IMG/VR virus record: IMGVR_UViG_3300033182_000145
Location: 1 to 63,982 of that record
Strand: one strand, 5' to 3'
Source of the DNA: a virus
Taxonomy: Duplodnaviria > Caudoviricetes
Length of the DNA stretch: 63,982 bases
In this document: positions 16,301-39,904 of the stretch, piece by piece
How positions within the stretch are numbered: position 1 is the stretch's first letter
Layout: the number at the start of each line of letters is the position of its first letter
The notes under the pieces: model-generated
Databases searched by the model: none
Told to the model about the DNA's origin: nothing
What the model saw: the letters and a program-made list of their open reading frames with translations, nothing else
Translations under genes and position numbers: made by a program

Positions 16301-19300
16301 GTATAAAACTTTCTGAAGATAATATAATGGGAATGGGTAAAATCCTATTAAACCGAGCTCAGAACCAAGCTATTGTTCTGTTAAATTCGGCGTTAGGATT
16401 GCAGCCTAAGAAATTAAAGGCAGTTAGAAACTTCTTAAGTTTAAAGCCGGATCAAGATCTTACGGCAAGAGGACAGAATCTTAAGGCTAGCTGGGAAGAA
16501 ATTGTTAGATCTTTGAATACTCCGCACGGACAGCAGACTACGTTGACGGATAGTAATCCTCTAACTACCTTAGATATAGCTATAACTAACCTTACAGCTC
16601 AGCTTAACGATATTGCTGAGATTGAGGGTATTCGTTTTGCGGAGGCAAAAAGAAAGTACGCGCACGCTGAGAAGGGCTTAAACTATTTAAAGAAACTTAA
16701 AAAAGACCATACAGAGTTAGAAGTTGGTAGCGAAGAGTGGGCTACATTCCAAGAAATTGTTCATGGTAAGAAGCAAACATGGAGAACGATCGGTCTCTTT
16801 AAGGCTTTGAATATTCTTAACTCGTCTGCCTACAAAGCAAACATTGAAAGAATAACAGCTGTAGCTGAAGACTTTGGGCTTACTGGCTTTGATGCTAAGG
16901 ACTGGCTGGGATTAGAAAACTTAGTTCTATATCACTTGAATCTTCCTACAGCTTCGTCTAAAAGATCTTATGCACACGGAGCCGATACGAACGGAATCTT
17001 TAACGAAAGAGCTGTCGTTAGTCCTGAGCTTTATGAAAACTTCAGAGCTAAAATGAAACAGCTGGAAGCTAAGCAGGGTGCTCCTATTTCACGTCAACAG
17101 TTCTTAGCTGAGTTTAACGAGTTCTTATCCGCAGAAAATATTGATAGTATGGGAATGTGGGATCTCAAAGATAACGTTATGCGGAGAAAGGAAGATGGAG
17201 AACTAAAGAGCAGAGAAGAAATACAGGAAGAGATTGGAGAATTGCTGGATATCGGGGCTCTTCTTTATTGGGCTCAGAATGATAAACTTCCTCCGGGTAT
17301 GTTTGAGAATCAGTTAGATGATCTGGGAGACGTTGAGGTTTATAAGCATGTCTTAGAGGACATGGCTCGTAAAACTGAAGAAAGAGCTGAAGGTATTATT
17401 ACTGAGCAGCAAGAAGAAGAGATGGCCTATAGAGAGGGATATCATGAATTCTTAAGACTGAAGGCAAAAATTGCTGGCGGCTTAGTCCATCCTCGGGTGG
17501 CTAATGATTTAGATTTGCCTGTTGTTGATTTCTACACTAGAGAAAGAAGCATATCGGAAATGGTCCCCACCTCAGCGGGACAACTTCATATCTCTACGGT
17601 TAATCCCAAGGGTGTCTTATCAATGATGCCTCAGACCAAGAGAATGTCTTTCCATAATATCGGTATTCCTGTTCTTCAAGAGATAGCTATTAGAAGACAG
17701 ATTAATAATATTCTTAGTCCGGTTCAAAGATTAACTAATGATCAAACGTTAACTAAGGAAGAAGGATTAATCTCAGAAGAGTTCTTAGGATATCGTGGAC
17801 CTTGGAAAGAAGAAAGTCTTCCTAAGCCGTTGCCTATTACTATTGATGAGATTGCTGACCTCAGAGCTAGAGATACCGATGGGTCTCACCTTAAGGCAAT
17901 ACGTATTATTACAGATCTTAGAGTGTGGGCAGACGAAAGAGGAATGGATCCCACTAAGATTCAGGGAGAAGCAATCCCCTTCTGGTTTGTCGTAAAGGAA
18001 ATGGAACAAGCAAGACATAATTTATTCCTTCGTAGTGAAGAACAAGCTTTCTCGGAGGAGGGGGGACTAGCCGGAGTAGATTTTGTACGTCAGCAAAACA
18101 GATTAAACTGGTTATCGGATTTACATAATATTACTTATTATTCACGAGATCTTAAAAACAGAGAATTATCTGGATTAACTATTGAAGAACAGTCTCGTAA
18201 ATTAGCGCTAATGACAAAAGCTAGTGAGGAAACTTGGATTAACTTACTACGTAATAGGGTGTCTGAAGACAACCCATACGGTAAGGCTTTGTCTTCCCCC
18301 ACAAAGGTTGCGGCTGCTTTAGAAATGATTCTGCCTAGAGAAGCATTCTTAAGAATTAAGAGAAGTATTGATTCAAATGCAGAAATAGTCTGGAGTGAGT
18401 TAGCTGAGCTTGCCTCTATCTGGCAGCAGACTGACTTTAACTACTACCTTGTCTCTCAGTTCTATAACAACAGTGTCTTCCCTGATGCACTAAAGGAATT
18501 TTCTATTGAAGAGAACGGCAAGACAATTCATCCTTATAGGGATATGCTTGTTCCTGAATTAGACGAGAACGGTGTTGTTAAGAAAGACTCAAAGGGTAAG
18601 GACTTAATGATCGAGGTTTGGAAGGATCCTAATTCTTGGATTAACCATATCAAACCAGAGCATAAGGAAGAGTTAATTCAAATCGCTCAGAGATTAGTTG
18701 ACGATCCTGAAAAGGGAGTTGGGAATGTTGTCTTTGATACACTGATGATTGAAAAGTTAGAAACAGATCCAAGGGGCCGAAGCAAGGCCGCTAGAGATAT
18801 GTACTATGCTTTATTCCCGAAGGAAGATGTTAACGCTGTTAGCGAGTCTACATCATTGAAGTCTCCCTTCCCAGCTCTACAGGCACAGGGGCAGTCTTCT
18901 AGTAAGGTTCGAGGAACGGGAGGAGATTTAGTTCTTACGCCAGCTAGAGCCTTAGAGATGTTAACCTTCTTAGAAAACTTTAATTTCTACCAGAGAGTTC
19001 AAACTCAGGAATTACTGGATGGTAAGGCTATTGGTGCTGTTATGGATAGCTCTCGAGAAGAAGCTATAAACAGAGAAACCTTAAGCCGTAGACTTAGAAA
19101 TGGCTTAGGACATAGCCAAACAGAAATGACTAAGGCTAGCCAGCAAACCAGTGAGGCTATTCTTCGGTTAGCTCGTGGAAGACAGACTAGAACAATTACA
19201 AACGATAAGCAAACATTATATGGTGCTCATCCAAAGGTGGTTGATTTAGATCATTACACAAACTTTGACAGCTCTTACACAGATAACTTTGCTCCTGCGT

Positions 19301-22300
19301 GGGTTGAATCCTTTATTGGAAACTTGTCTAAGATTGAACACTTATGGAAAACCACAGGAATAGATAACTTCGTTCGTCTTGATAGGGGAGAAAGAAATGT
19401 TCTTGCTTACTTAGAAGAACTTAAGAAAACTGTAAGAACAGAACAAAAAGGACAAGCCTTAGCAGAAACTATAGCTTTAAGTATCTTGATAGATAATGTA
19501 GGCAAAGATTTAGTAATAAGCCCTGAAGAAATTCACACCTTCTTTAATAGAGATCTAATGACAGAAGAAGATATTTCAAAAGGTATTGATGTGGCTACTG
19601 GGATGATGCGTCAGATAAACAGGGGGTATAGCTTATATAAAAATAATCCTAACACTGATGTAAGAATGTATCCTGCTTTAGTAAGCTTAGCAAGAGAGGT
19701 GTTTTCTTCGTATGATCTGTCTCAAAAAGACTTAGTTGCAGAGTTTAAAGAACTGTATGTAGAAAAAGTAAACCCAAGTGCTGATGAACAGTTTGGATTT
19801 AGTAGAAAGGACGATACAGTTGAGTTTGAAAATGGAGACTCTGCTTTACATTATGTTCTTACTCACGCATTAGGAGAGGAGTTAGAAACTTTAAACACCC
19901 GTCGAGATATGCCGGATGTTGATTCTTTAACTCCTAAACAGTTCCAGATTATCGGGCAAGATCTTGTCACAGCAGTTCAAACTTCTGAATCATTTGAAAA
20001 AGCTATTAGATCTATAGATCCTACTGGCAATATTAATTCAGATTTGCTTAGACTGGGACAGCAGTTAAGAGATATGGAGAATCAGGGACTGGTTCATAAA
20101 AATAATCTTAAACTGCTCAGAGCTATGATTCTTAGATTACATGATATTTCTCCAGATTGGTTCTCTGATTTTAACTTTGAATATATAGATGCAGCAGAAC
20201 GAACGGCTGCACTTAGAGATGAAGAAGGAAATGTTGTTGTTCGATTAGGACGAGACCTTACTAGACCCTACTCTTCACCCGATGTTGCTCTTACCTTTGC
20301 CCATGAGTTATTCCATGTTGGTAAGTTTAAGTTTGTTGAAAGTAATCCGGGTGTTTGGAATCAGTGGAAGGCTTTATGGGATTCTACTGCGGGCAGATCG
20401 TTAATGCGTAAGCATGTTACAGCTTGGAATAACGGTAAGTTTAATGCCGCAGAATATGACGCATACATGAAAAACCCAGACGAGTATCTTGCTGCCTTAG
20501 GTTCTTTCTTTATGATGAATGATATCTTGCCTGTGGTAGATACCTTAACTGTAGAAGAACGAAACATCAATAATAAAACGATGTCTGTTTTAGGTAAGGT
20601 TTTAGACTTTGTTCGCAACATGTTTAATAGAGTATCTAATGTGTGGGCTAATTTCTATTCAGCAAATCCTGAATTATCTAACCACGTTGAGACCCTGATA
20701 CAACGTACTATGGGTTGGGACCACAAGGCAGGAAAGGGATTAAAGGCTGATAAAATTGCTGGAGCTCCCACAGAAATGTTTATGAGAATGAAGTATCCTC
20801 AAGCTGAAGAAACCTTCAATTCAACCGATTTTGAAAAGAAGGTAAGACAGTTCGTAGCTTTAAGAGAAAAACACGATAATAATACTATTGGTCGAGAAGA
20901 GTTAGTGGAGTATGATGGCCTTCGTGAATACTTCTCTACGTCTAACGAAGCTCAGGTACATACTAACTTAGGTCAAACTAGGCAGGAGTTTTATGAAACT
21001 AAGCTCTTTATTGAGGAACATTATATGACTCAAACAGGGAGTATTGATATCACGAAGATATTGAACGATACTCCTCAGAGTGTCCGAGGTATTATTCCTC
21101 GAGAACAGGCTAGAGATAGTATTATTCTTACCGCGACTCAGATGATGATGGACCAGATTAAAAGTAGATTTGGGCCTACGATTCAAAGAAACGCAGGAGA
21201 GATAGCAGCTACCTTAGGAGCTGGTGTTAGTAAGTTATTCGGCAAAGAATCTAGATTTATGGAGCAGCAGTTAGCAGAGTGGACTACTGGTAAGGCGGGG
21301 ACCAACTTTACCTTTAACGGTCCTCATCAGTTTGTTGCTCACCTTACTCAACTTATCGATGATAATATTGGAACCAGCTTAGGCCAGTATACAAACGTAC
21401 ATGGTCTTTACTCGTTAAACAATATCATGAATCAGTTAGATTTATTCTCTGAAAACATTCTTCCGGCAATTACCGGGATTCAAAAGATAACTAGAAACTT
21501 TGTGCAAAGAGTTGTTGATACTCCTAATCTTGATCCTAAGGCTAGAGATATGGAGACCAAGATAAACTCTGAGATGGCAAAGCTTTTTGAAAACCCCAAT
21601 CATGAGATTAATTTCGATAATGATGAAAACCTCTTAAAATTAAACACCGAAAAAATTGGAGAGCTTCAAGATCATATGAAAACAGTGGCCTCCACCATGA
21701 GAAAACTTTTACAGTCGTATGAAGGTGTTCTTAGGGAATTAGGAGAATCTAGAGAAGGAGCACAGATTCGTACTCCTCTTAGACTGTCTACTAATATACG
21801 GGATACTACGGGAAGCGAAAACTTTAGAGTGGAGTTACGTAAGATCTTTAGGGAAGGTTTGGAGAATAATGATTTAAGTATTGATGCATTAACCATGATC
21901 GAGGGTGGTCTTCTTCCTAGAACTGATAGACGAGCTTCATTGGTAGAAGATTTAGATCGATTGGAGAGAGAGTATCCGGGCTACAGGCAATTCATTGCTT
22001 ATGAGCTGGGCTCTACTTTGCAGACAAGAAGCGAAACACAGCTTACTGAGGATCAGCTTACGGAACGAGGTGAGGCTATTCTTAAGGGATTAAAGAGTGA
22101 TACAACAGAAATTTCTAACCACTCCTTAGGTCTTACTAGGAAAGCTGTTATTGAGATAATGAAGAAGATGCAGAGAGGGGATCTAACGTGGACTAAGATT
22201 GCACGAATGGATAACACTGCTAGACTTCGTGATACTTATATGGCTACAATTAGAGAAGGCTCTACAAAGATTGGAACTGAAAGACTACAGTCTCTTAGTG

Positions 22301-24558
22301 CAATCAAGGAAGAGTTACCCAACTATCTTCACTTCAGTAAGGGGCGAACTGGCTCTGTCCAGAACTACGCCTATAACTATAAAACAGCAATTGATGTTCA
22401 TATTGATAATCTCTTAAACAGAGCATCTGTGGGGATGTATTATCCAAACGATAACTGGATTATTCCTAGTATTGATGTATTGGTAGACAATCCTGCTATC
22501 CGTACTCAGCTGTCTCTGGAGCCTATGCAGATTGTTGAAGACATGAAGCGAGGTACTATCGGAAATCTGTTTGAACGAGCAATGCTTAATAAGTACTATA
22601 ACGTTGAAGGAACCATTGGAGATGTTATTACTCTCTTTGAGGAAAGTATGGAAAGAGCAGTTGATATTAGGAATGATGATGGTTCTGTTTTAAGCGATAC
22701 CGATACTCAGGATATGTTTAATTCTGCTAAGGTTCTTAGAGGAAAGTATCTTACCACGAAGGGAATACATCTTGCTTCTAACAGTCCGTCTAGGGTTGAA
22801 AGATTATTAGGGGATCTTGGTCCGGGCATAACCCGAACAATCTTCGGAGGAAACCTTGCCCTCGCTTCCTTTACGGTGGAAACTATGGCTAGCACTTTCC
22901 AAGAATTGTTTGGCCGAGGTAATATCATGGGAGCAGTTAGAACTATTCTTGGCCCGGTAACTGGCTTAACGCCGGGTGGTGTTACCCTTAACTCTGAACA
23001 GAAAGCTAAGCTTCAGCGAGACTTAATGCATACTATTGAAGCATTGACTAAGGGATATCTCCCTGATTATGAGAAGCCCTCTACGGCTGTCCAAGAAAAG
23101 GCTCTGACTCGATTCTTTAACTGGACAGGTAAGCACTCCATGCGTCCCGCAGAACATATGTTACGGGTTACGGCTATCTCCAGAGCGGTCTCCTTTAGAA
23201 CATTTGTTACTGAAGGGTTTAGGCAACGGAACAGCAGTGGTAAGATTAAGTTTGTTGCTCTTGCTGAGTCTATTCGTGATAAACCTTTAGATCCGAACAA
23301 CGATGCGGATATTAAAAGCAGATTGAGAGAAGCTGGGTTTAATAACTGGATGGACAAAGATCTGACTATTATCACTTATCTGCTTTCAAATGGTTTATTA
23401 GATATGCAGGTTCAGACTCAATCAGGAGTGGTTGGTCAGAATACTGATGGATTATTCCACGCTTTCCTTGCGGAAATGGAGAAAACCTTGGAAAGTGGGG
23501 ATCCCTATTATAGCACCGGAGATATGTTTAACGAAATCGTAAGAACGATGGACGGTGGTAGTGCAGCTTTCCAGACCAGACAGGCTGTTATTGTGGGATT
23601 GAAAAAGGCAGAGAAGGCCTTTATTGAAGAAATTATTCTTAAACCAAACGCCTTTGATGTGTTTACCCCCGGCGTAACTAAGGGAGGGGAAGTCCAGAGT
23701 GTCGGTGCTTTAGATCCTCTCTTTGAAATCTATCGTCGATACCCCATGATCTTTGTGGGACAGCATATGATGAGGAAGTCTAATAGGTTGCATATAGGAC
23801 GCTACGCCTTTGGTCTGATGAATCTACTTATGCTGGATGTCTTATACATGATGCTACTGAGGTTGGCTATGGGATCTCGTTTAGAAGATATCGAGAAAGA
23901 GTTTGAGGAAAAGCCCACAGAGTTTATGATGAAATACTTAACTAGATTACCTATCCTTGGGCGATACATGGGCTTAGTTGGAGAGGCTGTCTCTACGATG
24001 TACAGTGGATATGGTAGAGAGCCCGGAGGATTTATTCCTGTGGGTGCTCTGTACGCGGGCTATAAAGGCATTCACAGGGCTGTCAAGAGCCAGATGAATG
24101 ATGCTCCCTCGAAGTGGTCTGATACCGTAAACTCGCTCAGAGTGGTTCCTATCGTCGGAGACAGGCTCCTATCGCTTGCCTTCTATACGGCTATGGGAGA
24201 CAACATTACTAGAAGAAATATTAACAGCAGTGGAACTACTAGGGATTTGGCTTCTAGAGTCAGAGGAAGCTACGGCGTTCCTCTGGAGGCTGTAAACTAT
24301 ATGTGGCCTGCTTTGACTTCAGAAATGGTACGGGAGTTTATGGTAGGCCAAAACATTAGCTGGCCTGCCTACGAGATGGCCAATGAGCCCTCTCCTTATC
24401 AGATGGCTCCGATGCCGACTACGCCTCCCCCGGCTGTTGAAGAACCCACTGCTCCAACACCTACACCGACCCTACCTACTACGCCTGTCGTAGATAGATT
24501 GGGAGAACAGAAAGGAACGTCAAGCGAGCTTGTCGAAAGACTAACAGGGGGAAGCTGA
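10372..24558 (+). CDS. Giant internal virion protein (4728 aa, gp16 position) with an RNAP motif-B-like segment and a zincin HExxH motif
   Basis: AGGAGG RBS; LREFLKIPIMRKLYGGG (Rx3Kx7YG) at aa ~1935-1948; FAHELFH at aa ~3311 with downstream DEYLA; hydrophobic segments near both termini. Confidence 0.7.
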   Translation: MTDFSWAYNPLDIKPTSTMVRQIQKEELKKYQEGFQSVPRTSEGAQYESTLANPTIFIDKAGKRVRGHMTALQAGAEAMAARYSRGYTSKNRAFSQYVARMALGGRDLSTWDPDGKAPLLSLNDNQEQLLTKFLGENTWNNNIFAYNELGDLPVLNNFYQTPEELFEDPAPANWNTAAALEQLELADPNLYYSLEYSLGGKERLEAVVEKARNPVEFFFKLNDAQQMQAIAQSFEEFSKEANWIEESGVFIFNFIRDGILNDPDMAASMAITGLLSLTTAGIGGAAYAAIKLAKNANKIATVLKNVKRFNKVQMGTRWVSMHLPENIGPYLMQSKFFKDSYQHMSKLQQVGVNALANATEGLITGSLAETANQFKLVDAGIQEKVSGAAIAREGLLEMAISPLINPAIGRLYTGISTLSIGAGRLTYNAGAYFGKQLNLVTPDLGKTLSKIGKEASQNFSPEGLQRTIHVYEAKDRLKTNLSALLGEEQNIGDWIDGDEMMPNLLNIIRRVTNLDDTVLLDSLNTSLEAFIADPENKNITMDPMGLAVGLIGSLALDPEINAKMQQQGSDVFTGALQQFLATREIVSESKNSMEYTGEEMTPTQFAEWIVENNAEYLTMPPETKAEAKKEAGDKWDDMSHSERTKKTEDVHNRMVEDQNAELNDIAQEQVGTTQKLETETKTGASVTGTPLNPPSPGVNPVVHAQKEANRVAEQLEKELNKITKELKEARKRNMPLSDIKARRRKVVNQLKKIRTAAKRLTRLQDQFLNAMGATKKDIELGKKIMELTNNFEAVKEQVLPQLEIEGKLLELTNRSLLLTRLFLDEEAEGTLFERTIRSYADRSKITEEDITLLEEIKLFIEEDLKPYHDQGAKLLTPEGKLYKYIIHILDNKGKINYNDYHKNFIKGLTELPRTLSKAMQSVHGETFARYKSLEDEILNLEREQRLERKKAVIAEGRKQVLELAGIATMPSVLQERKAVRLENESRKEILLRLVDEFVDEKSTTITQVDSQIDSSRLVTEKTKAAAKRQGATDEQIAEDIAKAEADADKFAGKSVMEEGADMPSAVAKTADTQKALGKLTDEQLDRVDKLIDSHDYDADDLAIHIPVVWVSNGRIEVASKSEVLNLGSKEEAKAAVSEAKASRVEVKKKTITKMNPADPEFAAVIDDKNLKKKLGKKPLKIEEVKKRISEFYEKKIATLTKGLRPSIRTNRAPRYYPKVRDETHKYLHNFTDDEILSVDYDYIERIESNRMDLSEVVRSPEEELKELTQWKVNLINLFRYFSNTNHKDLENGVHVFRIIASMPSYFRKISLDGSIHIFLQEALMDQENFGVDDDISTQRFDLNKVIELVSEQENKAFRATDGIKKRMAQEYGAKIEEQLRREGDPSNVNDLETALEFITKVRQALDFYYQSNARPNGPDGPVRYVLEVDEFGRATETTDSTTVYVAAVRTGITARIHQLTRAKFKNKFTALLEKAKKEGAKGSTDQEVITDYIVNNLNLMNSSELDTAGYVEFTLEGFGDGTLAWGNDPGTVGGAIVDTFLGRAIPELYNLQAVDSIEASNINERSIDQGESLIVTPAGIGDLNLAAPVGLWKIARVVENARWRSRITAILEAAREGKLTAKQKKILEKWKEDQVIPEDISPTDDQLGAFLLPQIFGHNMQEKAMTRDQQIEAITYFLSDIPQISASIIQDSITLSRGSVVRFRDTAEAPQPLSLGNMESMPKMGTMNAIPISRIGELLALESMIPNLTNYTTNMVKFADRYAREYREKWEAANPGKEFDQSIIFDPAAYDDMGASIDSIIHTLSLAATRAPQVSDALANLEAMFIMPNGTETDFELLKLDEKGNIVVSDEARKRGFTSRAEEDYYINTGITLVSKMNEMFGENHPLRKQAGEFIGVLNWLTDNNITTAIEYQNKIKELEESGNQKELAKADALREFLKIPIMRKLYGGGLPSFRSEFIGRTANSKKVIADLNKAFGIKLSEDNIMGMGKILLNRAQNQAIVLLNSALGLQPKKLKAVRNFLSLKPDQDLTARGQNLKASWEEIVRSLNTPHGQQTTLTDSNPLTTLDIAITNLTAQLNDIAEIEGIRFAEAKRKYAHAEKGLNYLKKLKKDHTELEVGSEEWATFQEIVHGKKQTWRTIGLFKALNILNSSAYKANIERITAVAEDFGLTGFDAKDWLGLENLVLYHLNLPTASSKRSYAHGADTNGIFNERAVVSPELYENFRAKMKQLEAKQGAPISRQQFLAEFNEFLSAENIDSMGMWDLKDNVMRRKEDGELKSREEIQEEIGELLDIGALLYWAQNDKLPPGMFENQLDDLGDVEVYKHVLEDMARKTEERAEGIITEQQEEEMAYREGYHEFLRLKAKIAGGLVHPRVANDLDLPVVDFYTRERSISEMVPTSAGQLHISTVNPKGVLSMMPQTKRMSFHNIGIPVLQEIAIRRQINNILSPVQRLTNDQTLTKEEGLISEEFLGYRGPWKEESLPKPLPITIDEIADLRARDTDGSHLKAIRIITDLRVWADERGMDPTKIQGEAIPFWFVVKEMEQARHNLFLRSEEQAFSEEGGLAGVDFVRQQNRLNWLSDLHNITYYSRDLKNRELSGLTIEEQSRKLALMTKASEETWINLLRNRVSEDNPYGKALSSPTKVAAALEMILPREAFLRIKRSIDSNAEIVWSELAELASIWQQTDFNYYLVSQFYNNSVFPDALKEFSIEENGKTIHPYRDMLVPELDENGVVKKDSKGKDLMIEVWKDPNSWINHIKPEHKEELIQIAQRLVDDPEKGVGNVVFDTLMIEKLETDPRGRSKAARDMYYALFPKEDVNAVSESTSLKSPFPALQAQGQSSSKVRGTGGDLVLTPARALEMLTFLENFNFYQRVQTQELLDGKAIGAVMDSSREEAINRETLSRRLRNGLGHSQTEMTKASQQTSEAILRLARGRQTRTITNDKQTLYGAHPKVVDLDHYTNFDSSYTDNFAPAWVESFIGNLSKIEHLWKTTGIDNFVRLDRGERNVLAYLEELKKTVRTEQKGQALAETIALSILIDNVGKDLVISPEEIHTFFNRDLMTEEDISKGIDVATGMMRQINRGYSLYKNNPNTDVRMYPALVSLAREVFSSYDLSQKDLVAEFKELYVEKVNPSADEQFGFSRKDDTVEFENGDSALHYVLTHALGEELETLNTRRDMPDVDSLTPKQFQIIGQDLVTAVQTSESFEKAIRSIDPTGNINSDLLRLGQQLRDMENQGLVHKNNLKLLRAMILRLHDISPDWFSDFNFEYIDAAERTAALRDEEGNVVVRLGRDLTRPYSSPDVALTFAHELFHVGKFKFVESNPGVWNQWKALWDSTAGRSLMRKHVTAWNNGKFNAAEYDAYMKNPDEYLAALGSFFMMNDILPVVDTLTVEERNINNKTMSVLGKVLDFVRNMFNRVSNVWANFYSANPELSNHVETLIQRTMGWDHKAGKGLKADKIAGAPTEMFMRMKYPQAEETFNSTDFEKKVRQFVALREKHDNNTIGREELVEYDGLREYFSTSNEAQVHTNLGQTRQEFYETKLFIEEHYMTQTGSIDITKILNDTPQSVRGIIPREQARDSIILTATQMMMDQIKSRFGPTIQRNAGEIAATLGAGVSKLFGKESRFMEQQLAEWTTGKAGTNFTFNGPHQFVAHLTQLIDDNIGTSLGQYTNVHGLYSLNNIMNQLDLFSENILPAITGIQKITRNFVQRVVDTPNLDPKARDMETKINSEMAKLFENPNHEINFDNDENLLKLNTEKIGELQDHMKTVASTMRKLLQSYEGVLRELGESREGAQIRTPLRLSTNIRDTTGSENFRVELRKIFREGLENNDLSIDALTMIEGGLLPRTDRRASLVEDLDRLEREYPGYRQFIAYELGSTLQTRSETQLTEDQLTERGEAILKGLKSDTTEISNHSLGLTRKAVIEIMKKMQRGDLTWTKIARMDNTARLRDTYMATIREGSTKIGTERLQSLSAIKEELPNYLHFSKGRTGSVQNYAYNYKTAIDVHIDNLLNRASVGMYYPNDNWIIPSIDVLVDNPAIRTQLSLEPMQIVEDMKRGTIGNLFERAMLNKYYNVEGTIGDVITLFEESMERAVDIRNDDGSVLSDTDTQDMFNSAKVLRGKYLTTKGIHLASNSPSRVERLLGDLGPGITRTIFGGNLALASFTVETMASTFQELFGRGNIMGAVRTILGPVTGLTPGGVTLNSEQKAKLQRDLMHTIEALTKGYLPDYEKPSTAVQEKALTRFFNWTGKHSMRPAEHMLRVTAISRAVSFRTFVTEGFRQRNSSGKIKFVALAESIRDKPLDPNNDADIKSRLREAGFNNWMDKDLTIITYLLSNGLLDMQVQTQSGVVGQNTDGLFHAFLAEMEKTLESGDPYYSTGDMFNEIVRTMDGGSAAFQTRQAVIVGLKKAEKAFIEEIILKPNAFDVFTPGVTKGGEVQSVGALDPLFEIYRRYPMIFVGQHMMRKSNRLHIGRYAFGLMNLLMLDVLYMMLLRLAMGSRLEDIEKEFEEKPTEFMMKYLTRLPILGRYMGLVGEAVSTMYSGYGREPGGFIPVGALYAGYKGIHRAVKSQMNDAPSKWSDTVNSLRVVPIVGDRLLSLAFYTAMGDNITRRNINSSGTTRDLASRVRGSYGVPLEAVNYMWPALTSEMVREFMVGQNISWPAYEMANEPSPYQMAPMPTTPPPAVEEPTAPTPTPTLPTTPVVDRLGEQKGTSSELVERLTGGS

Positions 24559-24875
24559 TGACTGAATGCGAAAATTGTAAAGAACGAGAAGTTAAACAAC
24601 TGAGAGAAGACCTACAGAAATGTAAGAAAAATAACCAAACCAAAGATAAAAAACTAAAAGAACAGAATAAGAAGGTTTTTATCCTAACGATCATTGGGGT
24701 AGCTATTGCAGCTATCTTTGGCAAGGAAGTATTAGATATGATTACCGAGTGGATGGGATCAGTCGATGGATTCAGATCTACCGTTTTACAGGGGTTGATT
24801 CTACCGGCCCCTAGTACCTTAAGCTTGTATTGTCTCGCTTTTGTGTGTGGAGGTCGACGAAAGAGAATCGACTAG
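24558..24875 (+). CDS. Small membrane protein with coiled coil, TM helix and PEP-CTERM-like C-terminus
   Basis: CxxC, coiled coil, TM VFILTIIGVAIAAIFG; ends LPAPSTLSLYCLAFVCGGRRKRID. Confidence 0.7.
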   Translation: MTECENCKEREVKQLREDLQKCKKNNQTKDKKLKEQNKKVFILTIIGVAIAAIFGKEVLDMITEWMGSVDGFRSTVLQGLILPAPSTLSLYCLAFVCGGRRKRID

Positions 24876-25001
24876 GGGGGTCACGAATTTGCGTGGGACA
24901 TAGGAGGGGGTTGGCTCCGTGCCTTCCCCCCCGTACCCCCTATGCAACTGCTGCCTGCATAGTGGGGTCTGTCTCACTGGCGGCACAGGAGGTTAGTCAC
25001 A

Positions 25002-25256
25002 ATGACTAGCAAATCGGTTTACCATGCTCTGAGTCGTATCCTCTACGGCTACGGACTGGCGTTGTTCTTCCTCGGTATGTGGTTCATCTACTACCAGACG
25101 ACTAACAGTTTCGAACTGGAGGTCTCTGGTATGGGACCAGCCACTGCGAGTTTGGTGTCATGGTTCCTCCTCGGGCCTTGCATCTCATTCGTTGGGGTGG
25201 CGACATACTTCGTGGGAATCTACTGCGAACTCCGTCGGGACGAAGAGAAGTCATGA
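25002..25256 (+). CDS. Early small membrane protein (two TM helices)
   Basis: 84 aa; AGGAGG RBS; two hydrophobic stretches. Confidence 0.7.
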   Translation: MTSKSVYHALSRILYGYGLALFFLGMWFIYYQTTNSFELEVSGMGPATASLVSWFLLGPCISFVGVATYFVGIYCELRRDEEKS

Positions 25257-25471
25257 GTCATTCCTTCAAGAAGGGAGACTTCGTGACTACTCCGCCCCGA
25301 AACGGTGCCCAGCACCGTGGACGGGCGAAAGTAGTAGTCGTTGGTCGGAAGAAGGTAACGGTTAGGTTTATGCCTGATCACCCTAAATCCGACACAGCCA
25401 AGTTCAAGCCTGAGCAGCTGAGGTACTGGCTCAAGGGCAACGTGCATCGCAACAAGCGAACGCACGGCTGA
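25253..25471 (+). CDS. Early basic protein, 72 aa, possible SH3/KOW-like beta-barrel
   Basis: MSHSFKKGDFV...GRAKVVVVGRKKVTVRF; ATGA overlap with the upstream gene. Confidence 0.6.
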   Translation: MSHSFKKGDFVTTPPRNGAQHRGRAKVVVVGRKKVTVRFMPDHPKSDTAKFKPEQLRYWLKGNVHRNKRTHG

Positions 25472-25473
25472 CA

Positions 25474-25667
25474 CCGTGGTGCTCCTTAACGGGAGCACTA
25501 CGGCTTCGGGTTCTTCGGAACCCTAGAGAGAGATGTACATCCTCTCTGGATCCCAAGGAAGGGAAGAGAGAAGGATGTATGCTAGACGGCTAACGTCTAG
25601 TCAAGCCTTGCAAGCGACAACCCTAACGGGAATCGCTTGCATTGTGCCTCGAGCCGTTCGAGGCATG
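25474..25667 (+). ncRNA. Array of six consecutive hairpins (structured leader, ncRNA or hairpin promoters)
   Basis: Inverted repeats at 25474-25503, 25508-25523 (C-TTCG-G), 25525-25547, 25581-25601, 25609-25641 and 25643-25667; TAACG at the tip of three of them. Confidence 0.55.
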
Positions 25668-25698
25668 CGTATGTTCAAACCTTTTGGAGTTAAATCCT

Positions 25699-27438
25699 AT
25701 GGGTAAGAATAAGGCGAAAGAGCAGAGCAAGTTTCTGCTCAGTGTGGTGAAACCCGCTGTGAAGCGATACCTCACCCCTCGGATGACGTTCTTCATCTCA
25801 CGCGGACTTGATGTTCGTGGTGTGATGGATCAGGCTACCCTGCCTGTGTTGCGTGATCCCGAGTTGGTGGCGGTTGTTGCGGAACACGGCTCTGGTGCTG
25901 TTGGAACAGCTGTCCGCAAGGTGGCTGGGAAGGAGTATCAGGACTACGTTCCTGAAAGCGAGATCTCCGTTCGACCCTTGGTCAACGTGAATCCCGTTAT
26001 CCTGTCGGGGAACAACCGCGTTCTGCGTTCTCGGTATGATGACCTCGGTACTCCTCAGAGTTCCGAGCAGTCCTGCCAGTACCAGACCTCGGTTCCCAAG
26101 TTCCTCGACGAGGCTCAGGTTGCTTCGATTGAGAAGTACCGCAGCACGCTTCCTTCTCACTTCGACCCCTCACAGAACGAGCAGGACAAGTTCCTGTCCG
26201 ATCGTGCGGTGTCGTGGATGGGGATGGTCGGTTCCGATGTGTTCTTCGAGCGCTACGACACTGTTTGTGGCGCTCTCCGTGAGTACGCCTCAGGGGAACA
26301 CAACGGAATGCAGAGCAAGGTCATCAGGCATTCGACTCTCATCGAGGAGCCTTACGCTCCTGATGAGGCGAGCCTGAAGGCGGTGGCTCGGCATCTCGGC
26401 TCTCACTTCGGGATGACCCACTCGGAACGTACAAAGTTCCTGTCGGATCAGGGCACTCGTAATGCCTTCTACGCCCGTCACGGGAAGAAGGCATGTGAGG
26501 CTGATAACTTGATCCGCTTGCTGGACGATGTTGACCGTACTGGTCAGACTCGTCGGCTGGTGGAGATCGATCAGGCTCACTCTGGACCGACTATCATCCA
26601 CTCCCTTCTCCGTCTCGACGGTGCAAAGGTGACTGGTAACCTGAATCACGCTGCTTACGAGCACGTCCTTCGGGTCAAGATGGTCAACCAGCTCCTTGCG
26701 ATGTTCCCTCGCCTCCGTTCTGTGGACCGTGCTACTCTCGAGAGCAAGGCCAAGAAGGGGGCAGCTGGTGGTACTTACGGAGCCGGACCCTCTAGGGTGG
26801 GTAAGGCTCTGCTGGGCATCGTTCCTCGTGATGAGGACGACGGCCCGGATGAGTACGAGGCTGATCCGAGGCTGTTGGAGTGGCTCGGCATTCCTGCCGA
26901 CACTCCTTCCAAGGAACTGCCCAAGAAGGTTGGGCAGCCCTTCCACCGGGCTCTGCACCTCGCGGCTCCCTATCTGGCACGCTACCACGTGCTGGTGAAG
27001 GAGATCTACAGGGAGAGCAATGGTCGGGCCTCGTTCTCCATTGGTGATGCCAAGTTGGAGCTCTTCTCCACTCGGTACAACAAGGAGGACACCGAACGTG
27101 TCAGCTTCCGGACTTCTCTCGGAGTCATGCACAGGCATCTGTTCTGTGTGGAAGAGGACAAGTACGGTCTGGGTTGGGCAGCAAGGATTGCCCACATGCT
27201 TGATGCCTTCATCAAGCGGATGGTGGTCCTTGATCTGGCGGAGCGTGGAATTCCTTGTCGGTCTTTCCACGATGCTCTCCAGATTCCACTGTGGGCTATT
27301 GCGTTTGCAAAGCGTCGGTGGAACTACTGGCACAACTACGCCATGCAGAACAACCCTCTGGTGCAGCTCGGCTGCGCTGAGGTTGCGAAGCGTGACGTGG
27401 TGCTCATGCCGGATGACGCGGTTCAGCTCTGCTTCTGA
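25699..27438 (+). CDS. Divergent, N-terminally reduced T7-family single-subunit RNA polymerase homologue (579 aa)
   Basis: Motifs in RNAP order: TPQSSE, motif A VEIDQAHSGPTII, motif B KAKKGAAGGTYGAG (Kx7YG), IAHMLDA, motif C SFHDAL; start placed at ATG 25699 after GGAG. Confidence 0.8.
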   Translation: MGKNKAKEQSKFLLSVVKPAVKRYLTPRMTFFISRGLDVRGVMDQATLPVLRDPELVAVVAEHGSGAVGTAVRKVAGKEYQDYVPESEISVRPLVNVNPVILSGNNRVLRSRYDDLGTPQSSEQSCQYQTSVPKFLDEAQVASIEKYRSTLPSHFDPSQNEQDKFLSDRAVSWMGMVGSDVFFERYDTVCGALREYASGEHNGMQSKVIRHSTLIEEPYAPDEASLKAVARHLGSHFGMTHSERTKFLSDQGTRNAFYARHGKKACEADNLIRLLDDVDRTGQTRRLVEIDQAHSGPTIIHSLLRLDGAKVTGNLNHAAYEHVLRVKMVNQLLAMFPRLRSVDRATLESKAKKGAAGGTYGAGPSRVGKALLGIVPRDEDDGPDEYEADPRLLEWLGIPADTPSKELPKKVGQPFHRALHLAAPYLARYHVLVKEIYRESNGRASFSIGDAKLELFSTRYNKEDTERVSFRTSLGVMHRHLFCVEEDKYGLGWAARIAHMLDAFIKRMVVLDLAERGIPCRSFHDALQIPLWAIAFAKRRWNYWHNYAMQNNPLVQLGCAEVAKRDVVLMPDDAVQLCF

Positions 27439-27460
27439 GCTGACACCACACAAACGGACC

Positions 27461-27494
27461 GGCGAGGGGGCCCGAAAGGGCCTCCTCGTCTTTT
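27461..27494 (+). terminator. Rho-independent terminator after the divergent RNAP
   Basis: ggcgagggggccc-gaaa-gggcctcctcgtc followed by tttt. Confidence 0.75.
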
Positions 27495-27559
27495 CGAGTT
27501 CTGTCCCTACCATCTGTTTGGTAGAGGGCAGCGCTCTAGGCTCCTATTAGGAGAAAGTC

Positions 27560-28078
27560 ATGACTGAAATCGTGACACAGGAGAAGTTCACCTACAAGGG
27601 CTTCTCGGCTGATGCCCCGGACATCGAGATCCGGTTCGTCGTCTGGAACAAGATGGACTGGCCCAGCAGGATCGTTCACACCGATCGCTGGACAGTCTTC
27701 GTGATCCCGGCGGACCTCAAGGGACTCACCTCTCTCGGCACGAAGTATCTCAGGGATGCTTCGCAGGAAGAGGTCTCTGAGTTCATGGATCAGACGATCA
27801 CGGACAAGCAGCAGCTGGATTTCCTGCCTACGAAGAACCTCACGGAACTTCGTGAACTCAAGGGACAGCCCACGCTTGAGACTCTCAAGAGTGGTGTCCG
27901 GTTGAGGGCTCGTGTGACTCTGGCTGATATCCCCGAATCTTTCGAGATCATCGGAGAAATCTCCCCAGATCACAACAGTGCCTCATGGTCACTGGAGAAG
28001 GCAATCAAGACACACTTCCCCGGATGCTTCCTCAAGCACCGGAACAAGTGCTCGTCTAATCCGAGTCCCTTCGGGTGA
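27560..28078 (+). CDS. Early hypothetical protein, 172 aa
   Basis: AGGAG RBS; same GC-rich codon style as its neighbours. Confidence 0.75.
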   Translation: MTEIVTQEKFTYKGFSADAPDIEIRFVVWNKMDWPSRIVHTDRWTVFVIPADLKGLTSLGTKYLRDASQEEVSEFMDQTITDKQQLDFLPTKNLTELRELKGQPTLETLKSGVRLRARVTLADIPESFEIIGEISPDHNSASWSLEKAIKTHFPGCFLKHRNKCSSNPSPFG

Positions 28079-28315
28079 GCTGACGACTATCGTCACCGGC
28101 CCCCGCCTCGTGCGGGGGTCGGAAACGATAGCCCTCTGGCTATCCTGTAGAGAGCCTGTCAAACTGGCAGGTTTTCACACAGTTCCTCTGAGGACTGAAG
28201 GGTGGCAAGGATCTGCAACCCAACTCAACATAAGGCAACGCAATATGATGTGGAGTCCATCACCAACACATACAACATATAGTATGACGTAAAGTTGGGT
28301 TATATGATAGGACAT

Positions 28316-28404
28316 ACCTAAGGTATACCTAAGGAGAAGGTTAGGGTAGTAAAAGTGTGTGGGTATTATAAGTTAGGGGAAGGCAACGTATAACCTAAGG
28401 TATA
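28316..28404. repeat. Short direct repeats ACCTAAGG(TATA)
   Basis: ACCTAAGG at 28316, 28327 and 28393; ACCTAAGGTATA is exact at 28316 and 28393. Confidence 0.6.
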
Positions 28405-28501
28405 AACCAACGTTAACATAACGGCAGAACCTTCGGAGGACCTCGGTTCCGCTGGGCAGCCCTAACCTCAGCGTAGGTTGGGCGTAGAAAGGAGACTTCT
28501 C

Positions 28502-28714
28502 ATGAAGTTCACGGTCAAGAAGACCACCGGGGATACCCCTCAGGGTGTCCAGAACGTTCTCCGTTCCGCTCATGGTGTCGAAGGCACCCCTCGTGAGTGG
28601 CCGGATAGCACCATCCGTCACTGGCTGGGCCGGGCGAAGGTCGTTAACCTCGACCTGACCGGCGATGACGTGCCCTCTCGTTGGAAGGCACTGGCCAAGG
28701 AGACCCACGCATAG
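28502..28714 (+). CDS. Early hypothetical protein, 70 aa
   Basis: AAAGGAG RBS then ATG 28502. Confidence 0.7.
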   Translation: MKFTVKKTTGDTPQGVQNVLRSAHGVEGTPREWPDSTIRHWLGRAKVVNLDLTGDDVPSRWKALAKETHA

Positions 28715-29261
28715 TCGAGGGTCTGCTGTTTTCCGGATAGTGGGTATACGTACCCCTATCCCTCAGGTACACTCCTCGGACTGTGCCTGAGGGATATCTA
28801 TGCTACCCCTCGTCCAGAGGAACCCGCACAAGCCAGCCCAGAGCAGGCGGGGGGTAGGCGTTATGTCTTAAACATAACTAGGGCGCTCGTCAGAGACTTG
28901 TGTAGACGCTCGCTGCAAGCAAGCGCATGGGAAAGACCACCCCCAATCCGACTGAACTGGATGAAATGGTCCGCAGAATGGGATGCAACTGCGACAACAA
29001 CATCCCCAGCATTTATATAGAAACTGAAGCCAGATCGTATGCTGGAACAGTATAAAGATAGCGCCTCTAGTCTCGGGCGGGAACCATCGTAAGGTGGAGA
29101 GACTCAGCCGCGAACCCTTAGACGCGGCGCTGCCTGAGCAAGCAGAACAAAAAGGCTCCAATACACGAGAAGGGACTAGTGCCATGCGCAGTCCTTAAGG
29201 ATACCTTAACCATACCGCAAGTGGATCAGTAATTTTCCACGAATTGCTGAAAGGAGTTAGA

Positions 29262-34810: not shown

Positions 34811-35110
34811 ATGGGACTATCAATTGATGGACACGACCAAGGATATGGTGGTAGTTTCAATGCGCACAAGCATTGGAAGAAGTTAAGAGAAAAGCACAGA
34901 AAGAATGATGCCCACAAGGCCAGAGGTGGTAATAGAATATGGAAGCCAGAAGTTTATTCCTCCACTGGTGCTGGCAAAGGCGACAAAGAAAGAAAATCAG
35001 ATGTTCCTAAGGAAGTTTATGACTTGAATTATGATCTTGCTTTTGGTAAAATAACAAGAGAAGAACACACTCAAAAACTAAAGGAACTTGGATTTGAAGA
35101 TATGGGATAA
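34811..35110 (+). CDS. Hypothetical basic protein, 99 aa (GAGKGDKER motif)
   Basis: AGGAGG RBS. Confidence 0.65.
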   Translation: MGLSIDGHDQGYGGSFNAHKHWKKLREKHRKNDAHKARGGNRIWKPEVYSSTGAGKGDKERKSDVPKEVYDLNYDLAFGKITREEHTQKLKELGFEDMG

Positions 35111-39455: not shown

Positions 39456-39838
39456 TGCCTGAGTGGCTCTTTCCTATTAGTCCTGTAGCGGCAAGTAGGC
39501 CCCGTGTTTCACGGCACGGGGCTTACTTCGCCGGTCCTTACAAACACTTCAGGGCTGAGTGTTCTGAGGTTGTCCCCCTTATACTTGGGGATGAGTTCGT
39601 ACCCTACGACCGACCATTAAAGGTTGATGTAGAGATATACGTAAAGCAACCTAAGAAAACAAAACTATCCGCACCGAAGGCAGACATTGATAATTTTTTA
39701 AAGGCTATCTTTGATGTCTTAAACGGTAAACTGTGGGTAGATGACAACCTGATACACGAAGTCTATGCTGTCAAAAGCTGGGCTAGGGAAGGGAGCGATG
39801 GTTATTTTACTGTCGGTGTAGATGTCTTAGGCCAGTAG
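39455..39838 (+). CDS. rusA: RusA-family Holliday junction resolvase
   Basis: ASRPRV and PKADIDNFLKAIFDVLNG..WVDDNLI signature. Confidence 0.85.
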   Translation: MPEWLFPISPVAASRPRVSRHGAYFAGPYKHFRAECSEVVPLILGDEFVPYDRPLKVDVEIYVKQPKKTKLSAPKADIDNFLKAIFDVLNGKLWVDDNLIHEVYAVKSWAREGSDGYFTVGVDVLGQ

Positions 39839-39901: not shown

Positions 39902-39904
39902 CTT

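What the first reader, a model, noticed from the sequence alone, without database searches (positions are those of the whole stretch)
25474..25667. Six-hairpin array directly upstream of the divergent RNAP
Most of this ~195-nt spacer can pair: a 12-bp stem, a C(UUCG)G hairpin, and three hairpins with TAACG at the tip. G-U pairs suggest selection at RNA level. Bases 25536-25547 can pair either locally or with 25565-25579, a possible switch. Hypotheses: a cognate ncRNA or template for the truncated polymerase (a polymerase plus ncRNA unit), N4-style hairpin promoters, or a regulatory leader.
Basis: partly seen in the sequence, partly recalled or inferred. Interest (0 to 1): 0.8.

Follow-up and report, generated by a model that had tools for sequence, protein, structure and literature searches.

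The report
Conserved hairpin leader before phage mini-polymerase
The six hairpins are real and are kept, with compensating base changes, in front of the same small RNA-polymerase gene in related marine phages, where they most likely shape, cut and protect the first messenger RNA the phage makes and are probably not a separate RNA partner of the enzyme.

Summary
Observation confirmed. Window 25474-25667 folds into six consecutive hairpins (MFE -117 kcal/mol, z -9.4). The window is a complete 64-kb T7-like marine phage. The array lies in a GC-rich leading-end early region, between a small KOW-like ORF and a 579-aa gene. That gene belongs to a rare, compact family of T7-type single-subunit RNA polymerases (Foldseek E 4e-8).

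All 7 lineages examined carry a hairpin-packed spacer before this gene. Two window hairpins are conserved families. H1 ("type A") has a 12-14-bp free-varying stem and an invariant C-UUAAY-K-G tip, always on the + strand. H6 ("type Z") starts TTGT-N-CCY and ends 31-37 nt before the start codon. The middle hairpins are exchangeable.

In 3 of 7 lineages the same intercistronic slots hold Rfam-scoring hammerhead-II or pistol ribozymes. The window has none.

Best reading (0.55): a cis-acting, + strand RNA punctuation/leader block that processes and stabilises the early polycistronic RNA and gates translation of the mini-polymerase.

N4-style hairpin promoters are not supported but not excluded (0.12). 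A free ncRNA partner is unlikely (0.05).

Novelty: a new variant of a known kind.

The parts
24866..24891 (+). Context: single-copy element AATCGACTAGGGGG(G)TCACGAATTTG at the exact point where GC rises from about 40% to 53-61%. It marks the start of the leading-end early region.
   Evidence: Present in the window, G001 (L002), L005, L006, L017 and L019. Single copy in the window. GC profile.
25253..25471 (+). Small 72-aa ORF (KOW/SH3-like) whose stop codon lies 2 nt before H1.
   Evidence: Homologues in L006 (98-322) and L019 (9535-9747) are each followed by a type-A hairpin. Only sub-threshold Pfam hits: KOW2_Spt5 E 3e-4 and Phage_ProQ_C_like E 1e-3. Some strains replace this segment.
25474..25503 (+). 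H1 = 'type A' hairpin: 12-13 bp stem, tip C-UUAACG-G, 3' flank CUUC-GGG.
   Evidence: Seven-copy alignment A9: 96.4% of cells paired, 11 of 12 pairs changed on both sides, 0 of 500 shuffles as high. CM hits only on the + strand.
25508..25523 (+). H2: 6-bp stem with a C(UUCG)G tetraloop. Lineage-specific.
   Evidence: One strain variant diverges right after it, at 25523.
25534..25580 (+). H3: long imperfect hairpin that presents the purine motif CAAGGAAGGG at its tip (25551-25564). It competes with a weaker local hairpin at 25523-25549.
   Evidence: The regex A[AG]GGAAG matches in 6 of 7 spacers.
25581..25601 (+). H4: 8-bp hairpin, loop GCUAA. Lineage-specific.
25609..25641 (+). H5: 9 + 3 bp hairpin with an internal loop and the type-A-like tip CCC-UAAC-GGG.
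   Evidence: A strain variant carries a different hairpin ending in the same ...CTTAACGGGAAT (table 7).
25643..25667 (+). H6 = 'type Z' hairpin: TTGT-N-CCY... 5' arm, ...RGG 3' arm. It ends 31 nt before the start codon.
   Evidence: Same element at 31-37 nt from the start codon in 6 of 7 lineages, with different apical stems.
25671..25706 (+). Short upstream ORF (11 codons) whose stop overlaps the polymerase start codon. The GAGG in the 3' arm of H6 lies 7 nt upstream of its ATG.
   Evidence: A comparable 10-12-codon uORF ending +1 to +8 relative to the main start is found in 4 of 5 lineages checked. Its function is inferred.
25699..27438 (+). 579-aa compact T7-type single-subunit RNA polymerase ('mini-RNAP').
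   Evidence: No Pfam or PHROG hit. Seven representatives among 1.84e9 proteins. Profile against PDB hits mitochondrial RNAP at E 7e-5. AF2 pLDDT 75.5. Foldseek hits T7 RNAP/POLRMT at E 4e-8.
27461..27495 (+). 13-bp GAAA-loop hairpin followed by UUUUC: an intrinsic-terminator-like end of the mini-RNAP unit.

Best explanation
The array is a cis-acting, + strand RNA element. It is the intercistronic 'punctuation' and 5' leader of the phage's leading-end early operon. It is transcribed as part of a polycistronic early RNA that runs from the conserved element at 24866 through two small ORFs into the mini-RNAP gene.

- H1 (type A) sits 2 nt after the stop of the upstream cistron. It is read as that cistron's 3' cap, or as a recognition hairpin for a processing or binding factor.
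- H2-H5 are exchangeable, stable hairpins that insulate the units and block exonucleases.
- H6 (type Z) lies at a fixed 31-37 nt from the start codon. It forms the structured 5' edge of the mini-RNAP message. It pairs a CCU with an AGG that could serve as the ribosome site of a short uORF overlapping the polymerase start, and so gates translation.

In sister lineages the equivalent slots carry self-cleaving hammerhead or pistol ribozymes. The job of these spacers is therefore to cut the early RNA into units and fix their ends.

Shown here: the structures, their conservation and covariation, the strand bias, the ribozymes in relatives, and the absence of U-run terminators or sigma-70-like promoters inside the array.

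Inferred: that the array is transcribed, that cleavage or end-protection happens in this phage, and the uORF/SD-sequestering role of H6.
For: 1. Real and far beyond chance: z -9.4.
2. The feature is conserved. All 7 lineages with a mini-RNAP homologue have a 149-400-nt hairpin-packed spacer directly upstream. z is -5.8 for L002 and -6.8 for L005. The paired fraction is 0.60-0.65 in 5 of 5 spacers.
3. Covariation with a conserved tip. For type A, 96.4% of cells are paired, 11 of 12 pairs changed on both sides, and 0 of 500 shuffles reach this; slid controls give 37-49%. Type Z keeps TTGT-N-CCY and its 31-37-nt spacing in 6 of 7 lineages while the apical stem changes.
4. Strand. The + strand MFE is lower than the - strand in 5 of 5 spacers, by 2.4-13.8 kcal/mol. 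All 7 CM hits are on the + strand across 175 kb searched on both strands. A UUCG tetraloop and G.U pairs are present.
5. Hammerhead-II ribozymes (43-53 bits, cut-off 37) and a pistol ribozyme (55 bits, cut-off 34.5) lie on the + strand in the same early intercistronic slots of 3 of 7 lineages. The L002/L008 hammerhead starts on the upstream stop codon, and the L006 pistol is the first element of the array.
6. Inter-hairpin gaps are 0-12 nt, and no sigma-70-like site falls inside 25474-25698. The polymerase gene must therefore be transcribed through the array.
7. None of the six hairpins is followed by a U-run. The genuine terminators of this phage are: 27461-27495, and 56951-56982 + CUUUUUU, the latter conserved in G001 with a compensatory base change.
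8. Precedents. T7 has a single hairpin in the 70-nt spacer before its polymerase gene. Hammerheads flanking genes in prophages were read as processing of long phage transcripts (PMC3088659, passages read).
Against: - No transcript data. No RNA run holds the stretch, and only DNA contigs could be laid.
- The window itself has no recognisable ribozyme, so cleavage here would need a host or phage nuclease that was not identified.
- The - strand also folds very well (z -8.33), and the strand argument rests on 5 spacers.
- One natural variant, 25495 G>A in 2 of 4 runs laid, would turn a C-G pair in H1 into C.A with no listed compensation. Seventeen further differences were not shown.
- The type-A hairpins were picked by eye as hairpins with that tip, so their covariation statistics are partly circular.
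- The model recovered only its 7 training copies. It missed the two variant copies (L006 1305-1337, L008 842-872).
- Conserved tip plus free stem plus a short Y-U-U-Y-G flank would also fit a polymerase recognition hairpin.
Confidence: 0.55

Rival explanations
1. N4-style hairpin recognition sites at the DNA level. The type-A hairpin (H1, perhaps H5) is extruded from the first DNA to enter the cell. A phage single-subunit polymerase recognises it through its conserved tip. That polymerase is either the mini-RNAP or a polymerase-like module of the 4728-aa virion protein. It starts RNA synthesis, as a promoter or a replication primer, a few nucleotides downstream.
For: - Conserved tip with a freely varying stem. 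This is the logic described for N4 early promoters (PMC4496689, passages read).
- There are only 1-2 copies per genome. All lie in the first approx. 2 kb after the conserved leading-end element, and all are in one orientation.
- The 3' flank is Y-T-T-(T)-Y followed by G in 4 of 9 copies; in the window it is CTTC-GGG.
- The giant ORF carries motif-A-like and motif-B-like strings, R-x3-K-x3-M-x3-Y-G, as in the phage's own canonical RNAP. These are conserved in 3 relatives.
- The mini-RNAP resembles the small N4 RNAPII class in size. Its only link to N4 RNAP2 is a weak PDB hit at E 0.07.
Against: - The geometry differs from N4. Stems are 12-14 bp against 5-7, and the loop is 6 nt against 3.
- Only 1-2 of the six window hairpins are of this type.
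- In L006 and L017 the next ORF's ATG lies 2-6 nt after the hairpin, which leaves no leader.
- Copies sit 2-25 nt after stop codons, the same slot that hammerheads occupy in relatives.
- No polymerase domain could be shown in the giant ORF. Pfam, PHROG, PDB, HMM and ESM searches were all negative. hhalign gave probability 0.14%. The AF2 model had pLDDT 40 and was unusable.
- The mini-RNAP is encoded in the early region, so it is unlikely to be in the virion.
Confidence: 0.12
2. The array, or part of it, is an RNA that modifies the transcribing polymerase. It would be a processive antitermination or pause element in the manner of the put RNAs of phage HK022 (recalled, not checked). This would let early transcription read through the terminator-like hairpins at 27461-27495 and 28150-28180.
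For: - The position is early in the operon and upstream of U-run terminators.
- Multi-hairpin RNA is conserved on the + strand.
Against: - No Rfam match of any kind.
- The conserved hairpins (types A and Z) are far apart, with variable content between them. Known put elements are compact two-hairpin units (recalled).
- Type-A copies also occur at other gene boundaries.
Confidence: 0.08
3. A discrete non-coding RNA that is a partner or template of the mini-polymerase (a polymerase-plus-RNA unit).
For: - Constant adjacency to the polymerase gene in 7 of 7 lineages.
- Very high structure content.
Against: - There is no space for its own promoter and no terminator at its 3' end.
- The middle hairpins are not conserved. 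They differ in number, from 1 to about 6, and are swapped between strains.
- The last hairpin is tied by a fixed spacing to the RBS/uORF of the gene. That is typical of a leader, not of a free RNA.
Confidence: 0.05
4. A DNA-level structure of the genome's leading end. Examples are a cruciform array acting as a stop or pause signal for genome entry, a packaging or terminal-repeat-processing site, or a replication origin.
For: - It lies 600-830 nt after a single-copy element that is conserved at nucleotide level in 6 lineages, where GC content jumps.
- The - strand folds almost as well as the + strand.
- T7's real left end also carries G5/C5 palindromes.
Against: - The physical ends were not determined. 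The 141-bp 'DTR' lies inside an ORF and is an assembly overlap.
- G.U-containing stems and the strand bias favour RNA.
- The spacing from the element varies from 645 to 1500 nt between lineages.
Confidence: 0.07

Closest known systems
RNase III processing hairpins of the phage T7 early mRNA (the site just upstream of gene 1, the T7 RNA polymerase)
   Same: Both are T7-like phages. Both carry an intercistronic hairpin immediately upstream of a single-subunit polymerase gene in the early, first-entering region. The presumed role is cutting a polycistronic early RNA and leaving protective hairpins. In T7 the 70-nt spacer before gene 1 holds one hairpin.
   Different: Here there are six hairpins in 195 nt instead of one. 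Most are perfect 6-13-bp stems, without the internal-loop architecture of T7 sites (recalled). Two have sequence-conserved tips or flanks. The gene served is a second, compact polymerase and not the canonical one, which sits at 35088-37535. Cleavage was not tested.
Self-cleaving hammerhead ribozymes flanking genes in (pro)phage transcripts (Perreault et al. 2011, PMC3088659; passages read)
   Same: Sister lineages carry hammerhead-II and pistol ribozymes in the very same early intercistronic slots, on the coding strand, starting at the upstream stop codon. The published reading is processing of long phage RNAs into gene-length units.
   Different: The window's own array matches no ribozyme family, even at E <= 10 in a 281-nt search. 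Its hairpins are simple stems without a recognisable catalytic core.
Early hairpin promoters P1-P3 of coliphage N4, read by the injected virion RNA polymerase (PMC4496689; passages read)
   Same: Hairpins near the leading end of a podovirus genome. A conserved apical sequence with stem bases free to vary as long as they pair. Association with T7-family single-subunit polymerases.
   Different: N4 has a 5-7-bp stem, a 3-nt loop and a GC-rich heptamer, with three like copies. Here the stem is 12-14 bp and the loop 6 nt, with 1-2 like copies among six unlike hairpins. The position is directly after stop codons. No virion polymerase was demonstrated.
PeSL (promoter-early stem-loop) cassettes of T4-type phages (PMC2839356, PMC4122927; search listing and abstracts only)
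   Same: Stem-loops punctuate small early genes and coincide with the points where related phages swap gene cassettes. Here, strains replace 25231-25458 and diverge after 25523, next to H1 and H2.
   Different: No host-type promoter is part of the unit. The hairpins are not copies of one repeat within a genome.

Membership tests
N4-type hairpin promoter | Short hairpin (5-7 bp stem, 3-nt loop) with a conserved GC-rich centre, the same in all copies (PMC4496689) | tested here: not met
   Window stems are 6-13 bp and loops 4-6 nt. The six tips differ: UUAACG, UUCG, AAGGAA, GCUAA, UAAC, GCCGU. Only H1, and partly H5, share a tip.
N4-type hairpin promoter | A virion-packaged single-subunit RNA polymerase that reads them | tested here: inconclusive
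   The giant ORF has motif-A/B-like strings. Pfam, PHROG, PDB, HMM and ESM searches were all negative. hhalign gave probability 0.14%. The AF2 model had pLDDT 40.4.
N4-type hairpin promoter | Transcription starts at a fixed short distance downstream of the hairpin | not testable with these tools
   No RNA holder was found.
T7-type RNase III processing site | Hairpin between early cistrons, including directly upstream of the polymerase gene | tested here: met
   The array lies between the stop at 25471 and the start at 25699. T7 comparison.
T7-type RNase III processing site | Cleavage by host RNase III at an internal loop of a roughly 20-bp composite stem | not testable with these tools
   Only H3 and H5 have internal loops. 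The host is unknown.
Intrinsic (hairpin + U-run) terminator | G+C-rich stem followed by a run of U | tested here: not met
   The terminator scan found none on the + strand inside 25474-25698. The 12 nt after H1 and H6 are CUUCGGGUUCUU and CGUAUGUUCAAA. Contrast 27461-27495 and 56951-56982, which do have U-runs.
Any Rfam 15 family (incl. hammerhead, pistol, twister, hatchet) | Covariance-model score at or near the gathering threshold | tested here: not met
   No match in 25440-25720 at E <= 10. Only chance-level hits in 24500-26500. Only tRNAs in the whole window. Relatives do score: pistol 55 bits, hammerhead-II 43-53 bits.
PeSL-type promoter/stem-loop cassette | Host-type early promoter fused to the stem-loop and repeated between genes | tested here: not met
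   No sigma-70-like site in the array: 3 sites in the 6 kb scanned, all at 29.2-29.7 kb, with 3.6 expected. No repeated unit within the genome.
T7-family single-subunit RNA polymerase (the downstream gene, context) | Palm motifs A, B and C with the H-x2-D ... H-D signature, and the T7 RNAP fold | tested here: met
   Invariant D291, G363, H499, D502, H524, D525. Same H..D...HD spacing as the phage's canonical RNAP. Profile hit to mitochondrial RNAP at E 7e-5. Foldseek hits to T7 RNAP/POLRMT at E 4e-8, probability 1.0, TM 0.47-0.55.

The most novel reading that the evidence does not exclude
The type-A hairpin (H1 and its relatives) is a recognition hairpin for a phage single-subunit RNA polymerase. 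It would be a long-stem cousin of the N4 hairpin promoter, used on the first DNA to enter the cell. The enzyme would be either the new 579-aa minimal polymerase or a so far undetectable polymerase module inside the 4728-aa virion protein. If so, a T7-like phage lineage would combine a canonical T7 polymerase with an N4-like, structure-specific early transcription or priming system.
Probability: 0.12. Interest if true: 0.85.

Novelty: new variant of a known kind. Interest (0 to 1): 0.6.

Why it matters
Structured punctuation of phage early transcripts is known from T7 RNase III sites, T4 PeSLs and hammerhead-flanked genes. Three things are new here.

1. This block is conserved across a whole uncultured, widespread marine/estuarine lineage. 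The lineage was found in runs of 13 studies.
2. It is built from at least two hairpin families with sequence-specific tips. That implies a dedicated reader, either protein or polymerase.
3. It is interchangeable in evolution with self-cleaving ribozymes.

It also always precedes a previously undescribed, very compact family of T7-type polymerases. That family has 7 representatives among 1.84 billion proteins.

Together these give a tractable system for two questions. How do phages set mRNA ends without host RNases? And what does a second, minimal polymerase do in a phage that already has a canonical one?

Tried and rejected
**Searches that found nothing**
- DNA similarity to 50,697 phage records: no match.
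- Close-relative scans with P0001, P0004, P0006, P0007 and P0008 in viral contigs, and with P0002 in metagenomes: nothing.
- The alignment-based scan with A1 was not possible, because it has no conserved stretch.
- The search for homologous proteins on giant-ORF residues 1380-2420: no hit among 1400 candidates scored, in the length range 2600-8274 aa only.
- ESM Atlas: no usable hit.
- Earlier findings by place and by sequence: nothing.

**Motif and repeat tests**
- Search for a repeated phage-polymerase promoter consensus by k-mer counting: only purine-rich RBS-like words. No promoter map could be made.
- TAACG as a genome-wide motif: not enriched.
- CTTAACGG occurs once in G001.
- A TAAC-tipped hairpin with a stem of 8 or more pairs occurs once in the window.
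- Whether the H1/H5 tip (AACGG) kisses the H6 loop (CCGUU) was considered. It was dropped because the complementarity is not kept in L002, L006, L008 or L019 (read).
- A hammerhead-like CUGACGA at 28080 was checked and is not supported by Rfam.

**Expression and population data**
- No RNA holder listed.
- Natural variation from 4 of 24 listed runs gave too few substitutions in the array for a population-level covariation test: 25495 G>A, 25554 C>T, 25567 A>T, 25620 A>G.

**Giant ORF as polymerase**
- The AF2 model of giant-ORF residues 1380-2420 had pLDDT 40.4. It was not sent to a fold search because the result would be meaningless.

**T7 Tphi resemblance**
- The tip of T7 Tphi (CCU-CUAAAC-GGG) resembles the type-A tip.
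- It was not pursued as homology. The phage's own Tphi-equivalent hairpin after the capsid gene (56951-56982) has another tip and a U-run.

**Not seen**
- Supplementary files of papers were not consulted. Ribozyme lists in the supplements of PMC3088659 or later surveys may already include the relatives' hammerhead and pistol copies.

Full report
**What the window is**

The 63,982-bp window is a whole IMG/VR virus record.
- Its 141-bp terminal repeat lies inside an ORF, so it is an assembly overlap of a circular or concatemeric map.
- PHROG matches identify a T7-like podovirus:
  - canonical 815-aa RNA polymerase, 35088-37535, E 2e-162
  - primase/helicase, DNA polymerase, ribonucleotide reductase
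  - portal, capsid, tail protein, large terminase
- All long genes are on the + strand.
- A 4728-aa ORF (10372-24558) closes the late region. It has no Pfam, PHROG or PDB match.
- From about 24,850 to 29,100 the GC content jumps from about 40% to 53-61%. The relatives show the same rise.
- The hairpin array lies in this GC-rich block.
- By gene order, this block is the leading-end early region of a T7-type map.

Window 25465-25705 folds into six successive hairpins.
- + strand: -117 kcal/mol, z -9.40, 0 of 200 shuffles as good.
- - strand: -106.7 kcal/mol, z -8.33.
- Anatomy:
  - H1, 25474-25503: 12-13 bp, tip UUAACG
  - H2, 25508-25523: C(UUCG)G
  - H3, about 25534-25580: tip loop AAGGAA
  - H4, 25581-25601
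  - H5, 25609-25641: tip CCC-UAAC-GGG
  - H6, 25643-25667
- TAACG occurs in H1, H4 and H5, but is not enriched genome-wide.
- The proposed alternative pairing of 25536-25547 exists (-13.4 against -24.0 kcal/mol). It has negligible equilibrium weight.
- No Rfam family matches.

**The neighbouring gene**

The ORF at 25699-27438 (579 aa) has no Pfam or PHROG hit.
- It belongs to a very rare family. A scan of 1.84 billion representatives gave 7 hits, all 579-647 aa. It is therefore not truncated.
- The alignment keeps D291, G363, H499, D502 and H524-D525.
- Its H-x2-D ... H-D string has the same spacing as in the phage's canonical polymerase.
- The family profile hits mitochondrial RNA polymerase at E 7e-5.
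- An AF2 model (pLDDT 75.5) matches T7 RNAP and POLRMT at E 4e-8.
- A 13-bp GAAA hairpin plus UUUUC follows the gene.

**Relatives**

Six further lineages were found, through the polymerase, the conserved C-terminus of the giant ORF, and a conserved DNA word:
- G001 (L002/L004/L007/L018)
- L005/L020
- L006
- L008 (about the same as L009)
- L017
- L019

Each encodes a mini-RNAP homologue. In each, a 149-400-nt spacer packed with hairpins lies directly upstream.
- z is -5.8 for L002 and -6.8 for L005.
- 60-65% of bases are paired in 5 of 5 spacers measured.

**Two of the six hairpins are conserved families**

*Type A*, which includes the window's H1:
- 12-14-bp stem with an invariant tip, C-TTAA(C/T)-(G/T)-G.
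- Nine copies in 6 of 7 lineages; none in L005.
- In a gapless alignment of seven copies:
  - 96.4% of 84 cells pair
  - 11 of 12 pairs changed on both sides
  - 0 of 500 shuffles reach the observed values
  - slid controls give 37-49%
- These copies were chosen as hairpins with that tip, so the test is partly circular.
- A covariance model found its seven training copies and nothing else in 175 kb, on both strands. All hits are on the + strand. It missed the two variant copies, L006 1305-1337 and L008 842-872.
- Type-A copies sit 2-25 nt after a stop codon in five cases.
- In three lineages the stop belongs to a homologue of the 72-aa ORF that precedes H1 (window, L006, L019).

*Type Z*, which includes the window's H6:
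- Begins TTGT-N-CCY, ends ...RGG, and has a variable apical stem.
- Ends 31-37 nt before the start codon in 6 of 7 lineages.

*The rest*:
- The purine motif at the tip of H3 (A[AG]GGAAG) recurs in 6 of 7 spacers.
- The remaining hairpins differ in number and sequence.
- In natural strains, the array diverges after H2, and one variant carries another hairpin with the same ...CTTAACGGGAAT.
- In some strains the small ORF before H1 is replaced by 87 other letters (4 of 24 listed runs laid, contigs only).

**RNA or DNA?**

- The + strand is the more stable in 5 of 5 spacers.
- Type-A copies are all in one orientation.
- G.U pairs and a UUCG loop are present.
- Rfam finds hammerhead-II ribozymes in L002 (4421-4500, 43.1 bits), L008 (50.1 bits) and L009 (53.4 bits).
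- Rfam also finds a pistol ribozyme in L006 (1214-1286, 55 bits). All are on the + strand, in the same early intercistronic slots.
  - The hammerhead starts on the stop codon of the upstream ORF. Its long stem covaries between L002 and L008.
  - The pistol is the first element of the L006 array.
- The window, L005, L017 and L019 show no ribozyme.
- Perreault et al. read hammerheads flanking phage genes as processing of long transcripts (PMC3088659, passages).
- This is the strongest support for an RNA-level processing role of these spacers. It does not show what cuts the RNA in the window's phage.

**Promoters and terminators**

- Gaps between the six hairpins are 0-12 nt.
- The sigma-70-type scan finds nothing in the array.
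- No hairpin is followed by a U-run. The phage's true terminators are.
- The mini-RNAP gene must therefore be reached by transcription through the array, unless a hairpin itself is the promoter.

**A possible translational layer**

- In 4 of 5 lineages checked, a 10-12-codon uORF starts 25-32 nt upstream and stops +1 to +8 relative to the polymerase start.
- A one-base indel between L008 and L009 changes the frame, yet a stop still overlaps the start.
- The conserved AGG in the 3' arm of type Z lies 7-12 nt before that uORF's ATG.
- This part is inference.

**The N4 idea**

N4 early promoters are 5-7-bp, 3-nt-loop hairpins with conserved apical bases and free stem bases. An injected polymerase reads them (PMC4496689, passages).
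- Type A shares the logic but not the geometry.
- I looked for a polymerase in the giant ORF. It has a D-x-x-G-A-S...IIH string.
- It also has an R-x3-K-x3-M-x3-Y-G string, conserved in three relatives.
- hhalign against the mini-RNAP family is not significant, although it aligns the motif-B regions (probability 0.14%).
- Every database search was negative.
- The AF2 model was unusable (pLDDT 40.4).
- The reading stays open at low odds.

**Verdict**

- The array is real, conserved and structurally selected.
- It is best explained as the RNA punctuation and leader block of the early operon that delivers a new compact polymerase.
- It is a new variant of a known kind.
- The sharper open questions are what reads the type-A tip, and what the second polymerase is for.

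Noticed in passing
window 24866-24945: A 25-26-nt element (AATCGACTAGGGGG(G)TCACGAATTTG) is followed by a G-run/C-run hairpin with a covarying inner stem, then CCCCCC-K-TACCCC. It is conserved at nucleotide level in 6 lineages whose proteins are only 35-47% identical. It is single-copy, overlaps the last late stop codon, and sits exactly at the GC jump. It may be a genome end, a packaging site or the first promoter.
   Followed up: partly
window 25699-27438: New compact (579-647 aa) family of T7-type single-subunit RNA polymerases. It is encoded in addition to a canonical 815-aa polymerase, and has only 7 representatives among 1.84e9 proteins.
   Followed up: partly
L002 4421-4500; L008 459-535; L009 112-188; L006 1214-1286: Hammerhead type II and pistol self-cleaving ribozymes, scoring above Rfam gathering thresholds, lie in the early intercistronic spacers of sister phages. 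The window's phage has none.
   Followed up: partly
window 15739-16221 (giant ORF residues about 1790-1950): Motif-A-like and motif-B-like polymerase strings inside the 4728-aa ORF are conserved in G001, L019 and L020. They are not statistically supported, and the structure prediction failed.
   Followed up: partly
window 25671-25706: An 11-codon uORF overlaps the mini-RNAP start codon. Comparable uORFs occur in 4 of 5 lineages checked.
   Followed up: partly
window 25144-25458: Strain-level cassette replacement. 25231-25458 (most of the 72-aa ORF) is replaced by 87 other letters in contigs of 2 runs. 25144-25245 is replaced by 87 letters in one contig of another run.
   Followed up: no
window 24800-29100: The early region is 13-20 points richer in GC than the rest of the genome. 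The same holds in L002 and L005, so this is a lineage trait and not a recent insertion.
   Followed up: partly
window 56916-56982 and 39493-39528: Long hairpins are conserved with G001. The pair after the capsid gene ends in CUUUUUU (a Tphi-like terminator) and shows a compensatory change at the base of the stem. Another lies just upstream of the three tRNA genes (Met, Arg, Leu at 39829-40066).
   Followed up: no
L016 (266-kb viral contig), - strand at 7237-7252: Around the 16-nt search word, 21 of the 24 bases compared with the leading-end element are the same. The context is unrelated and looks protein-coding. This is unexplained.
   Followed up: no
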